Made by a program: the position numbers and the translations under genes
Shown here: positions 54,015 through 55,911 of the stretch, piece after piece
Numbering within the stretch: the first letter of the stretch is position 1
How the letters are laid out: each line of letters opens with the position of its first letter
From: Christensenella sp.
Lineage (GTDB): Bacteria; Bacillota; Clostridia; Christensenellales; CAG-138
Reading direction: 5' to 3'
NCBI GenBank assembly: GCA_034927595.1
Contig: JAYFPQ010000069.1
Span: 26,412 to 90,411, forward strand
DNA: 64,000 bases
Notes under the pieces: model-generated
The model's database searches: none
What the model was told of the DNA's origin: nothing
Seen by the model: the letters and a program-made list of their open reading frames with translations, nothing else

Positions 54015-54383
54015 ATGATTCAACCGCAAACCAGATTAAAGGTCGCGGACAACAGCGGCGCGAAGGAAATCATGTGCATTCGCGTGCTGGGCGGTTCCTA
54101 CCGTAAGTCCGCCAATATCGGCGACGTGATCGTGGCCAGCGTCAAGTCCGCTTCGCCGGGCGGCGCTGTGAAAAAGAAGGACGTCGTTCGCGCGGTCGTC
54201 GTGCGCACGGTGTTTGGCATTCAGCGTCCGGACGGAAGCTATATCCGCTTCGACGACAATGCCGCCGTCATTATCAACGACCAGAAGCAGCCCCGCGGCA
54301 CCCGTATCTTTGGGCCCGTGGCGCGTGAACTCCGTGAGAAGGACTATATGAAGATCGTGTCCCTCGCACCGGAAGTACTGTAA
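54015..54383 (+). CDS. rplN: 50S ribosomal protein L14
   Basis: [16 protein letters not shown]. Confidence 0.98.
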
Positions 54384-54397
54384 AGGAGGAGCATGAC

Positions 54398-54739
54398 ATG
54401 AGCAGTTTGAACGTCAAAAAAGGCGATACCGTCGTTGTCATCTCCGGCAAAGACAAGGGCAAAAAGGGTAAAATCCTGGTTGCGCATCCCGATGACGAGC
54501 GCGTGGTCGTTCAGAACGCCGCGATGGTTACCCGTCACGTGAAGCCCCGCAAGCAGGGACAGCCCGGCGGCCGCATCGAGCAGGAAAGCGCGATTCACGC
54601 TTCCAACGTGATGCTCGTTTGCCCGAAGTGCGACAAGCCCACCCGCGTCGCTCACAAGACCAAGGAAGTCGAGATCTCGGGCGAGAAGAAGCAAAAGAGC
54701 GTCCGCGTTTGCAAAAAATGCGGCAAGGTAATGGATTAA
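54398..54739 (+). CDS. rplX: 50S ribosomal protein L24
   Basis: VKKGDTVVVISGKDKGK. Confidence 0.97.
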   Translation: MSSLNVKKGDTVVVISGKDKGKKGKILVAHPDDERVVVQNAAMVTRHVKPRKQGQPGGRIEQESAIHASNVMLVCPKCDKPTRVAHKTKEVEISGEKKQKSVRVCKKCGKVMD

Positions 54740-54760
54740 GGCGGAAGGAGGAACTGACAA

Positions 54761-55708
54761 GTGGCAACAAAAAAGGACATTGAAACCGTCGTCGACGCCG
54801 TGGAAGCAGCAGCCGAAACGGTTACCAAAGAAGTAAAGAAAGCCGCGAAGAAGGCAGCTCCGAAGGCCGCCGAAGCAGCAGAAGCGGTTGAAAAGACCGT
54901 GAAGAAGGCCGTTAAGGAAACCGCGGAAGCGGCTGCCGAAACCGCCGAAAAAGCGGAAAAGGCCGTCAAGAAGACCGCCAAAGCCGCCGCCGAAACCGCC
55001 GAAAAAGCGGTGGAAGCCGTGAGCGAAGCCGCCGCGGAAACCGTAGCCAAAGCTGCGGGCGCCGTGAAGGAAGCCGCCGCGAAGGTCGAGAAGAAGGCAG
55101 ACGCCTCCAAGCCCGCCGCGAAGAAGGCAAAGGGCCCGCAGGCGGACATGAAGAAACTCGAAGGCATGCCGCGCATGAAGAGACGCTACCTCGATGAGGT
55201 TGCACCGTCGATGCGCGAGAAGTTCAATTACAAGAACGTCATGCAGATTCCGGGTCTCGAAAAGGTAATCATCAACATGGGTCTCGGTTCCGACAAGGAA
55301 AACCCCAAGGGAATCGAAGCCGCAATCAAGGAACTCGGCACGATCGCCGGCCAGAAAGCCGTCGTCACCCGCGCTAAGAAGAGCGTTGCGAACTTTAAGG
55401 TTCGCGAAGGCATGACCATCGGCGCGAAGGTTACGCTCCGTGGCGACCGGATGTACTACTTTGTCGATAAGCTCTTCAACATCGTCCTGCCCCGCGTGCG
55501 CGACTTCCACGGCGTGTCCGACAAAGCGTTTGACGGCCGCGGCAACTACGCCCTCGGTCTCAAGGAACAGCTGATCTTCCCCGAGATCAACTACGATGAC
55601 ATCGATAAGACACGCGGCATGAACATCGTGTTCGTGACCAGCGCCAAGACGGACGAAGAATGCAAAGAGCTGCTCACCCAGCTCGGCATGCCGTTTGTAC
55701 AGGGCTGA
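54761..55708 (+). CDS. rplE: 50S ribosomal protein L5 with ~135-aa Ala/Lys/Glu-rich N-terminal extension
   Basis: L5 core starts at MPRMK (55166); upstream in-frame GTG at 54761 has a GGAAGGAGG RBS. Confidence 0.9.
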
Positions 55709-55725
55709 AAAGGGAGGATAGCGAT

Positions 55726-55911
55726 ATGGCAAAGTTAAGCATGAAGTTAAAACAGGCGCGCGAACCGAAGTTCAGCACCCGTGGCTACACCCGCTGCCGC
55801 ATCTGCGGCAGGCCCCACTCGGTTTTGCGCAAGTATGGCGTCTGCCGCATTTGCTTCCGCGAACTCGCGTATAAGGGCGAAATTCCCGGCGTACGCAAGG
55901 CAAGCTGGTAA
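55726..55911 (+). CDS. rpsZ: 30S ribosomal protein S14 type Z (zinc-binding)
   Basis: RCRICGR...CRICFR. Confidence 0.97.

What the first reader, a model, noticed from the sequence alone, without database searches (positions are those of the whole stretch)
54761..55165. uL5 with a 135-aa histone-H1-like Ala/Lys/Glu/Thr repeat extension
The only strong RBS (GGAAGGAGG) precedes GTG 54761. The frame runs without a stop through [16 protein letters not shown] repeats into the canonical L5 start at 55166, which has no well-spaced RBS. Normal bacterial uL5 is about 180 aa. uL5 lies in the central protuberance, so a long charged tail could affect intersubunit contacts, membrane or nucleoid tethering, or S8-independent autoregulation (inference).
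Basis: partly seen in the sequence, partly recalled or inferred. Interest (0 to 1): 0.6.

Follow-up and report, generated by a model that had tools for sequence, protein, structure and literature searches.

The report
Ribosomal protein uL5 with helical front arm
This uncultured sludge-type Clostridia bacterium makes ribosomal protein uL5 with a real, conserved 135-residue front extension that looks like a two-faced helical arm on a flexible tether, not a histone-like tail; it is an unusual example of a known habit of bacterial ribosomal proteins, and its role is untested.

Summary
rplE is one open frame, 54761-55708 (315 aa), from a GTG behind the best Shine-Dalgarno site among 11 ribosomal-protein starts scored. 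The 135 extra codons are coding. All 17 genus genomes with a match keep the frame open. In all 12 loci compared the RBS, GTG and first residues are the same, indels are in frame, and pN/pS is 0.07 against 0.14 in the core, the lowest of six frames. One relative has no in-frame start codon near the core.

The "histone-H1-like" label does not hold. The extension has 29 Lys but 24 Asp/Glu, a net charge of +5 and 2% Pro. It has a strong amphipathic alpha-helix periodicity (98 degrees, z 6.8-10.8 in 11 of 11 long forms) with an Ala/Val face. AlphaFold2 gives four helices and a disordered basic linker, at modest confidence.

It appears to have grown by tandem duplication inside a short basic tail shared by the family. 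Other families in the order carry different uL5 N-terminal appendages.

Verdict: real, selected and translated. It is a new variant of the known lineage-specific extensions of bacterial ribosomal proteins. Its function is unknown.

The parts
54398..54739 (+). rplX (uL24, 113 aa), the upstream gene. Its stop lies 21 nt before the rplE GTG.
   Evidence: PF17136 90.2 bits, KOW 30.6 bits
54743..54751 (+). Shine-Dalgarno site GGAAGGAGG, 9 nt before the start codon
   Evidence: -11.9 kcal/mol, the strongest of 11 genes scored. Identical in 12 of 12 genus loci and in 4 of 5 further genus loci; the fifth, L047, and G216 carry close variants.
54761..54763 (+). GTG start codon of the long rplE
   Evidence: GTG in 12 of 12 loci; the relative L047 uses ATG.
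54761..55102 (+). Residues 1-114: Ala/Lys/Glu/Val/Thr amphipathic alpha-helical repeat array with four predicted helices (4-32, 34-60, 62-86, 89-114)
   Evidence: Hydrophobic-moment peak at 98 degrees, z = 8.8 against shuffles. pLDDT 50-70.
54905..55010 (+). 54-nt (18-aa) tandem duplication inside the helical array. It belongs to a 21-22-aa insertion relative to most genus members.
   Evidence: period 54, 2.0 copies, 86% matches; alignment
55103..55165 (+). Residues 115-135: basic, Pro/Gly-containing linker, predicted disordered
   Evidence: pLDDT below 50; sequence
55148..55177 (+). In-frame ATGs at 55148, 55166 (the canonical uL5 start position) and 55175, none with a usable SD
   Evidence: The Met at the 55166 position is Thr or Val in 3 of 12 close loci, and L043 has no in-frame start codon there at all.
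55166..55708 (+). Canonical uL5 core (residues 136-315) plus the stop codon

Best explanation
rplE is translated from GTG 54761 as a single 315-aa (about 34 kDa) uL5 with three parts. Part 1 is a helical array of about 110 residues built from 15-22-aa Ala/Lys/Glu/Val/Thr units. One face is Ala/Val and the other carries mixed Lys/Glu, and the array is nearly neutral overall. Part 2 is a flexible basic linker of about 20 residues. Part 3 is the normal uL5 body, which sits in the central protuberance of the 50S subunit (the location is established knowledge and was not tested here). The array grew by in-frame tandem duplication inside a short (about 25-35 aa) basic N-terminal tail that the whole family shares. 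The conserved ends of that tail (MA(T)KK(D/E)... and ...KK..K(P/A)F(S/T)xx(P/A)R(L/M)K) still flank it. Shown: the coding status, the start site, purifying selection, repeat growth and helical amphipathicity. Inferred: the weakly hydrophobic Ala/Val face packs helix on helix, so the module is a soluble helical hairpin or bundle tethered to the ribosome surface. It would then act as a protein-interaction or surface-shielding appendage, not as a nucleic-acid-gripping basic tail or a membrane anchor. The actual partner and benefit are unknown.
For: Start and frame. The SD before GTG 54761 is the best of 11 genes scored, and the internal ATGs score poorly. All 17 genus genomes with a match have stop-free frames of 295-361 aa. 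I read 16 of these 17. In 12 of 12 loci the RBS, GTG and N-terminal residues are identical and all indels are in frame. pN/pS is 0.07 in the extension against 0.14 in the core, and 2.5-6.0 in four other frames; the mirror antisense frame gives 0.13. The canonical Met is Thr or Val in 3 of 12 loci, and L043 has no in-frame ATG/GTG/TTG between residue 94 and the core. Public gene callers already call the long form: 98 of 100 hits to the extension alone carry both uL5 Pfam domains, at 229-360 aa. A DNA contig covers 54739-55508 without gaps. Contigs from three RNA libraries bridge the GTG and the extension-core junction, and no indels were listed; this is weak evidence, because contigs cannot prove transcription. 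Structure. The composition is A 33%, K 21%, E 15%, V 10%, T 7%, P 2%, with net charge +5. Amphipathic periodicity peaks at 98-100 degrees, with z 6.8-10.8 in 11 of 11 long forms. The sector within 30 degrees of the hydrophobic direction holds 9 V, 9 A and 2 T. AlphaFold2 gives four helices plus a disordered linker in two runs. The nearest PDB folds are generic four-helix bundles, none at E <= 0.001. Evolution. There is a 54-nt tandem repeat. Other genera of the family have 204-215-aa uL5 with a short basic tail and the same end motifs. The long forms fall in one supported subclade of a uL5-core tree (97/96), and a single origin is not excluded.
Against: There is no protein-level evidence; no proteomics or Ribo-seq was available. 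The AlphaFold2 confidence is modest (mean pLDDT 57 and 63, pTM 0.41 and 0.49) on shallow alignments of 36 and 13 rows. The helical part varies from 92 to 164 residues among relatives. That fits a fixed four-helix bundle poorly and would also suit a length-tolerant or largely passive appendage. The anti-SD sequence was assumed, because no 16S gene is in the assembly. Where the uL5 N-terminus points on the ribosome was not tested. The Met at 55148 is conserved in 12 of 12 close loci, so a minor short isoform cannot be excluded in this species.
Confidence: 0.7

Rival explanations
1. One reading: a histone-H1-like basic, disordered tail that binds rRNA, DNA or the nucleoid electrostatically.
For: The extension is 21% Lys and has a [12 protein letters not shown] motif and a basic linker. 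uL5 tails in other families of the order are of this kind: net +17 and +32, no amphipathic signal (z about 0), and a sub-threshold HC2 match of 29.5 against 40 bits. An earlier scan report describes such a tail on uL5 in another phylum.
Against: There are 24 acidic residues. Net charge is only +5 over 135 aa, and +2 over the helical 113. Pro is 2%. The amphipathic helix signal is strong (z = 8.8). The predicted structure is helical. No HC2 match appears at E <= 0.1.
Confidence: 0.1
2. Translation starts at an internal ATG (55148 or 55166). The upstream 400 nt would then be a leader, or both a long and a short isoform are made.
For: In-frame ATGs exist, and the Met at 55148 is conserved in 12 of 12 close loci.
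Against: The SD scores are -5.2 (spacing 2) and -1.4, against -11.9 for the GTG. The upstream codons are under stronger purifying selection than the core. Both Met positions are missing in L043-L045 and L047, and L043 has no start codon there. Rfam finds no RNA element.
Confidence: 0.08
3. An apolipoprotein-, perilipin- or LEA-like amphipathic repeat that lays the ribosome on a membrane or lipid surface.
For: The window protein and 5 of 8 related long uL5 proteins give sub-threshold Apolipoprotein matches, with ApoLp-III or Perilipin matches in the window protein and two of them. The periodicity of 98.0 degrees equals 11 residues per 3 turns.
Against: All matches lie far below the cut-off (20-45 bits against 90). 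Only 2 of 116 residues are bulky hydrophobics, mean hydrophobicity is about 0, and the HeliQuest-type discriminant exceeds 0.68 in 36 of 99 windows (the scale and thresholds are recalled). Lys and Glu are not segregated as in class A helices, at 135 and 132 degrees.
Confidence: 0.08
4. A pro-sequence removed after assembly, as the bL27 N-terminal extension is removed by the Prp protease in Firmicutes.
For: The genome encodes Prp next to a bL27 that begins MFKMNLQLFAHKKG.
Against: No NLQ(L/F)FA-like motif lies at the uL5 junction; the cleavage motif itself is recalled. The full 135 aa are under purifying selection, and the length varies by whole helical units.
Confidence: 0.04
5. A tolerated, essentially neutral low-complexity expansion with no function of its own.
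For: Repeat number varies among close relatives, giving 115-181-aa extensions. No homologue exists outside this clade: 4 fragment hits among 1.84 billion representatives.
Against: pN/pS is 0.07. The first 36 residues are nearly invariant across genera whose full-length proteins are only 66-70% identical to the window's. The amphipathic phase is kept in 11 of 11 long forms.
Confidence: 0.1

Closest known systems
Low-complexity terminal extensions of prokaryotic ribosomal proteins (Ntountoumi et al. 2019, PMC6821194, section 9 read; Xue et al. 2022, PMC9534751, passages read)
   Same: These are lineage-specific Ala/Glu/Lys-rich additions at a terminus of a conserved ribosomal protein, common across bacteria and of mostly unknown function. 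In M. pneumoniae some of them (S6, L22, L29) form resolved secondary structure.
   Different: That survey found most such regions at the C-terminus and does not list uL5 among the 11 proteins it names. Here the region is N-terminal, 135 aa long, nearly neutral and coherently amphipathic-helical, not a floppy basic tail.
C-terminal extension of uL5 in the Cutibacterium acnes 70S ribosome (PMC10085706, passages read)
   Same: A species-specific extension of bacterial uL5.
   Different: It is 31 aa long, lies at the other terminus, and was traced between 23S helices H84 and H38. It is not repetitive.
Fungal mitochondrial uL5m (PDB 5mrc_E 274 aa, 3j6b_E 292 aa, 6ywe_E 352 aa)
   Same: A uL5 core preceded by more than 100 extra N-terminal residues in a solved ribosome.
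   Different: The extensions share no sequence similarity; the match covers the core only. It is an organellar protein and part of the extra length may be a targeting sequence (recalled). The central protuberance there is remodelled (recalled).
Exchangeable apolipoproteins, apolipophorin-III and perilipin amphipathic repeats (PF01442, PF07464, PF17316)
   Same: Long runs of amphipathic helix with 11/3 periodicity; weak profile matches.
   Different: The scores lie far below the family cut-offs. The apolar face is only Ala/Val. There is no class A charge pattern.
H1/HC2-like Lys-rich tails on uL5 in other lineages (P0144 and related proteins in this order; earlier scan report e1-4523240 on another phylum, unchecked)
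   Same: The same attachment point, the uL5 N-terminus, and a similar length.
   Different: Those tails are strongly basic (net +17 or more), carry Ser/Thr/Pro and show no amphipathic signal.

Membership tests
Bacterial uL5 (rplE) | Pfam Ribosomal_L5 and Ribosomal_L5_C, and the NCBIfam equivalog NF000585, above their cut-offs | tested here: met
   85.7 bits (cut-off 34.9) and 136.2 bits (cut-off 27.8); 281.5 bits (cut-off 186), residues 136-314 on profile positions 2-180 of 181.
Bacterial uL5 (rplE) | Position in the spc operon between rplX and rpsN (gene order from established knowledge) | tested here: met
   uL24 at 54398-54739. A 61-aa uS14-like ORF follows at about 55726; I named it from its sequence.
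Histone H1-like / HC2-type basic tail | Profile match to PF07382 (HC2) | tested here: not met
   no HC2 match at E <= 0.1 for the whole protein or for the extension. P0144 from another family gives 29.5 bits against a cut-off of 40.
Histone H1-like / HC2-type basic tail | Strongly basic, acid-poor, Pro-containing and disordered (criteria recalled) | tested here: not met
   29 K against 24 D/E, net +5, P 2%; helical; amphipathic, z = 8.8.
Apolipoprotein A1/A4/E domain (PF01442) | Profile score at or above the gathering cut-off of 90 bits | tested here: not met
   24.3 bits (whole protein) and 26 bits (extension); 20.3-45.5 bits in 5 of 8 relatives and no match in 3.
Apolipoprotein-like class A amphipathic helix | 11/3 amphipathic periodicity | tested here: met
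   best angle 98.0 degrees; 98-100 degrees in 11 of 11 long forms.
Apolipoprotein-like class A amphipathic helix | Lys at the polar/apolar boundary, acidic residues at the polar centre, and a bulky hydrophobic face (criteria recalled) | tested here: not met
   K and E lie at the same mean angle (135 and 132 degrees); 2 of 116 residues are bulky hydrophobics.
Apolipoprotein-like class A amphipathic helix | Binds lipid surfaces | not testable with these tools
   Needs liposome binding or localisation experiments.
Lineage-specific low-complexity extension of a bacterial ribosomal protein | A terminal Ala/Glu/Lys-rich segment absent from the E. coli-type protein and conserved within a lineage | tested here: met
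   Paper criteria read.
Lineage-specific low-complexity extension of a bacterial ribosomal protein | Lies on the ribosome surface | not testable with these tools
   No solved structure covers it. The position of the uL5 N-terminus was not examined.
Prp-processed N-terminal extension (bL27 type) | A cleavage motif like NLQ(L/F)FA before the mature N-terminus (recalled) | tested here: not met
   bL27 has MFKMNLQLFAHKKG. The uL5 junction reads ...[17 protein letters not shown].

The most novel reading that the evidence does not exclude
The N-terminus of uL5, on the central protuberance, is a recurrent docking point in this order of Clostridia. Different lineages have hung different modules there through Lys/Ala/Pro linkers: an amphipathic helical array (this genus and at least three sister genera), H1/HC2-like basic tails, coiled coils, and paired DUF1508 domains. 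On this reading the ribosome is used as a display scaffold. The helical array of this genus would be a specific interaction module, for example one that links ribosomes to each other or to a partner during dormancy or stress, and so a new way of regulating or organising bacterial ribosomes.
Probability: 0.15. Interest if true: 0.65.

Novelty: new variant of a known kind. Interest (0 to 1): 0.4.

Why it matters
Terminal extensions of bacterial ribosomal proteins are known to be widespread, but almost none has an assigned function. This one is unusually easy to study. It is long, ordered-looking, under strong selection and attached to an essential protein at a functionally busy site. The central protuberance holds the 5S rRNA, the B1b/c bridges and the P-site tRNA elbow (established knowledge). 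The extension varies by whole helical units among close relatives. Sister lineages carry quite different modules at the same position. That makes it possible to ask whether the uL5 N-terminus is merely a permissive site or a used platform. For annotation, the long GTG start should be kept and not trimmed to the canonical Met.

Tried and rejected
1. Homologues of the extension outside uL5. phmmer against 1.84 billion representatives gave 4 fragment hits of the same thing. The protein atlas gave no usable hit. NCBIfam gave 0 families. The own genome has no second copy; the best other hit has E = 0.33.

2. An RNA element in the extra DNA. Rfam found nothing at E <= 1 in 54300-55800.

3. Compensation for a lost central-protuberance protein. 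bL31 is present in 24 of 26 genus genomes. bL25 (PF01386) was found in 2 of 26 genus genomes and in 0 of 41 family genomes that are at least 90% complete. It was also not found in 4 of 5 genomes of other families with a normal uL5, nor in any of 5 with extended uL5. The loss of bL25 therefore does not track the extension.

4. Fold search of the extension model. 0 of 500 listed matches had E <= 0.001; the matches are generic four-helix bundles only.

5. A self-association test with two copies of residues 1-116 gave no verdict. This counts neither for nor against binding.

6. The 16S rRNA 3' end, needed to check the anti-SD. No 16S gene was found in the assembly, which is 91.8% complete.

7. One low-depth RNA-library contig joint skips 54724-55229 (depth 2.9, 23 letters on the shorter side). 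I read it as a relative with a shorter uL5, not as a variant of this organism.

8. Literature. Five full-text searches found no description of an N-terminal uL5 extension in bacteria. Subscription journals are not covered.

9. Earlier scan notes. Nothing was on record for this place or this sequence.

Full report
**What is there**

The stretch 54761-55165 is the first 135 codons of one open reading frame, 54761-55708 on the + strand (315 aa). It starts 21 nt after the stop of rplX (uL24, 54398-54739). GGAAGGAGG lies at 54743-54751, nine bases before a GTG. Pfam and NCBIfam place the uL5 domains only on residues 136-314. Residue 136 aligns with residue 1 of the Bacillus stearothermophilus L5 crystal structure. 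Of the 60 best solved uL5 chains shown (113 matched), none aligns before query residue 120. The bacterial chains shown are up to 187 aa long, apart from one of 210 aa.

I scored the SD of every in-frame ATG, GTG or TTG up to the core against an assumed generic anti-SD. GTG 54761 gives -11.9 kcal/mol. That is the best among 11 ribosomal-protein starts in the window; the other ten give -6.2 to -11.5. ATG 55148 gives -5.2 with a spacing of 2, ATG 55166 gives -1.4 and ATG 55175 gives -3.8. The assembly has no 16S gene, so the anti-SD could not be checked.

**Is the extension coding?**

In a draw of 24 other genomes of the same genus, 17 gave a uL5 match. All 17 have stop-free frames of 295-361 aa. 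The 7 without a match are 56-89% complete. I read 16 of the 17; G007 was not read.

In the 12 loci first fetched, the 21 nt from the rplX stop to the GTG are identical, including the SD. All 12 begin [10 protein letters not shown], and all length differences are in-frame blocks of helical units. By Nei-Gojobori counts summed over all pairs of these 12, pN/pS is 0.072 in the extension and 0.137 in the core. In a six-frame control the annotated frame is the lowest. The mirror antisense frame gives 0.13 and the four other frames give 2.5-6.0.

The Met at the canonical start position is Thr in two of the 12 loci and Val in one. The Met at 55148 is kept in all 12. In the more distant genus members L043-L045 and L047 both Mets are gone. 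L043 has no in-frame ATG, GTG or TTG between residue 94 and the core. There a functional uL5 can be made only by translating the extension.

A search with the extension alone returned 100 proteins, of which 98 carry both uL5 Pfam domains and are 229-360 aa long. Public gene callers therefore already call the long form.

A DNA contig from a sludge metagenome covers 54739-55508 without gaps. Contigs from three metatranscriptome libraries bridge the GTG and the extension-core junction, and no indels were listed. This shows that the sequence is not an assembly artefact. It does not prove transcription or translation.

**What kind of sequence is it?**

The 135 residues are 33% Ala, 21% Lys, 15% Glu, 10% Val, 7% Thr and 2% Pro. 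There are 29 Lys against 24 Asp/Glu, giving net +5 and pI 9.2. This is not the acid-poor, Pro-rich make-up of an H1-type tail (criteria recalled).

The hydrophobic moment has a single sharp peak at 98.0 degrees, which is 11 residues per 3 turns. Within 30 degrees of the hydrophobic direction lie 9 Val, 9 Ala and 2 Thr. Lys and Glu share the opposite face, at mean angles of 135 and 132 degrees. Opposite-charge i,i+3/4 pairs are not in excess.

Eleven long forms were scored: eight from this genus, G216, G344 and P0110. In all 11 the local moment exceeds shuffles by z 6.8-10.8, the peak lies at 98-100 degrees and the net charge of the helical part is -2 to +10. In eight uL5 tails of other kinds z is -0.0 to 3.0, and the two largest are strongly basic, at net +17 and +32.

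AlphaFold2 gives helices 4-32, 34-60, 62-86 and 89-113/114, followed by a linker with pLDDT below 50. One run used the whole protein (36-row alignment, mean pLDDT 56.8, pTM 0.41). The other used the extension alone (13 rows, mean pLDDT 63.0, pTM 0.49). Foldseek against the PDB gave no match at E <= 0.001. The top rows are generic four-helix bundles: talin rod domains, pectin methylesterase inhibitor, the copper storage protein Csp and single-chain ROP.

The only Pfam matches of the extension are sub-threshold hits to Apolipoprotein (26 bits against a cut-off of 90), ApoLp-III and Perilipin. Five of eight related long uL5 proteins show the same (20-45 bits). A uL5 tail from another family instead gives a sub-threshold match to the H1-like HC2 family (29.5 bits against 40). 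Only 2 of 116 residues are bulky hydrophobics. A HeliQuest-type lipid-binding discriminant exceeds 0.68 in 36 of 99 windows (scale and thresholds recalled).

**Where it came from**

Tandem Repeats Finder reports a 54-nt unit in two copies (86% matches) at 54905-55010, and a 45-nt unit. This genome has 21-22 residues more than most genus members, and L003 has 58 more.

Titles of close relatives' records name only MAGs: Christensenellaceae, Clostridiaceae, Eubacteriales, Bacillota or Clostridia bacterium.

In the family, 60 of 61 genomes gave a match. Matches that reach query residue 60 or earlier without stops occur in this genus and in four other genera: G216, G344, G341 and G329. From their SD-led starts I read these as 323, 334, 366 and 249 aa. 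The other family members I read (8 genera) have a 204-215-aa uL5 with a short basic tail. That tail begins MAKK(D/E)... or VAKK... and ends ...K(P/A)F(S/T)xx(P/A)R(L/M)K, or a close variant, directly before the core. The same end motifs flank the long forms of the divergent genus members.

A maximum-likelihood tree of the uL5 core used 25 rows of my choice and 178 columns. I left out near-identical genus loci and extended forms of other families. It puts all long forms, the intermediate one and two short ones in one subclade (support 97/96). The supported branches force only one change, so a single origin is not ruled out.

Outside the family the picture is mixed. In the first, unselected sample of one genome from each of 15 other families, 2 have uL5 extensions of 50 aa or more (264 and 344 aa) and the rest are 179-196 aa. 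Two further families that I picked because of hints also have extended forms, of 237 and 230 aa. In four of the five extended genomes read from these other families, uL24 also has a 30-80-aa Lys/Ala/Glu C-terminal tail. In the fifth no uL24 was picked out.

A search for proteins longer than 315 aa that contain this uL5 core found only 203 among 1009 candidates. Besides this clade and obvious chimeras, they include Ala/Lys/Thr/Ser tails, coiled-coil-plus-linker forms, a 300-aa Lys/Val/Ala/Asp tail, and ten clusters in which two DUF1508 domains are joined to uL5 by a Lys/Ala/Pro linker. The DUF1508 match scores 109.8 bits against a cut-off of 22.

**How it most likely works**

Shown: the gene makes a 34-kDa uL5 whose front part is a selected, repeat-built amphipathic helical array on a flexible basic tether.

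Inferred: an Ala/Val face is too weakly hydrophobic for stable membrane insertion and too extensive to stay exposed. It therefore probably packs helix on helix, giving a soluble hairpin or bundle attached to the central protuberance. I take this to be a surface appendage for protein-protein contact or shielding.

The first 36 residues are nearly invariant across genera, which points to a specific contact at the tip. The variable number of helical units argues against one fixed bundle fold.

I could not test where the uL5 N-terminus emerges on the ribosome. I also found no evidence for any particular partner.

**Rivals**

I considered five rivals:
- an H1-like nucleic-acid-binding tail;
- internal initiation or dual isoforms;
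- a lipid-surface tether;
- a Prp-type cleaved pro-sequence;
- a neutral expansion.

The genome does encode Prp next to a bL27 that starts MFKMNLQLFAHKKG, but the uL5 junction has no such motif. The evidence for and against each rival is listed in its own section.

Compensation for a lost neighbour is not supported. bL31 is present. bL25 was not found family-wide, nor in 4 of 5 genomes with a normal uL5.

**Comparison with what is known**

Low-complexity Ala/Glu/Lys-rich regions are frequent in prokaryotic ribosomal proteins, mostly at the C-terminus. uL5 is not among the 11 proteins named in that survey (PMC6821194, section 9 read).

Eleven of 52 M. pneumoniae ribosomal proteins have extensions, such extensions are common across bacteria, and some form helices (PMC9534751, passages read).

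C. acnes uL5 has a 31-aa C-terminal extension lying between H84 and H38 (PMC10085706, passages read).

Fungal mitochondrial uL5m chains carry more than 100 extra N-terminal residues.

Earlier reports of this scan describe an H1-like N-terminal tail on uL5 in another phylum, and a giant uS17 with a coiled coil and a Lys/Ala tether in a Clostridia genome. I did not check either of them.

Five full-text searches found no description of a bacterial N-terminal uL5 extension.

**Verdict**

The extension is real, translated from GTG 54761 and under purifying selection. "Histone-H1-like" is the wrong description; it is an amphipathic helical repeat arm on a basic tether. It is a new variant of a known kind, and moderately interesting because of its order, its conservation, its site on the ribosome and the variety of modules that relatives carry at the same spot.

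Noticed in passing
window 54398-54739: uL24 (113 aa) has a C-terminal CPKC...CKKC zinc-ribbon-like segment (Pfam Zn_ribbon_3 at 21.7 bits, cut-off 27). The same CxxC...CxxC pattern appears in every uL24 read in relatives across the order.
   Followed up: partly
L015, L021, L048-L050 (other families of the order): uL24 carries a 30-80-aa Lys/Ala/Glu-rich C-terminal tail in four of the five genomes read here whose uL5 has a low-complexity N-terminal tail; in the fifth (L048) no uL24 was picked out. The two proteins sit far apart on the 50S subunit (recalled), so this looks like a lineage-wide habit, not a local partnership.
   Followed up: partly
P0164, P0167-P0173, P0176, P0178 (public protein clusters): uL5 proteins of 346-370 aa in which two DUF1508 (PF07411) domains are joined to the uL5 core by a Lys/Ala/Pro linker. 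Pfam scores 109.8 bits against a cut-off of 22 for P0164. Their genomes and taxa were not examined.
   Followed up: partly
own genome and family: Ribosomal protein bL25 (PF01386) was found in 2 of 26 genus genomes and in 0 of 41 family genomes that are at least 90% complete. It was also not found in 9 of 10 genomes checked from other families of the order.
   Followed up: partly
L056 1125-1764 (own genome, contig C33): An rplU-prp-rpmA cluster. bL27 begins MFKMNLQLFAHKKG, the usual Firmicutes-type pro-sequence ahead of the Prp cleavage site (motif recalled).
   Followed up: partly
window 54344-55732, minus strand: A 462-aa antisense open frame spans rplX-rplE. pN/pS in the antisense frames is 0.13-6.0 and behaves as the mirror of the sense frame, so it is a by-product of composition and not a gene.
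   Followed up: yes
own genome: No 16S rRNA gene was found in the assembly (165 contigs, 91.8% complete).
   Followed up: no
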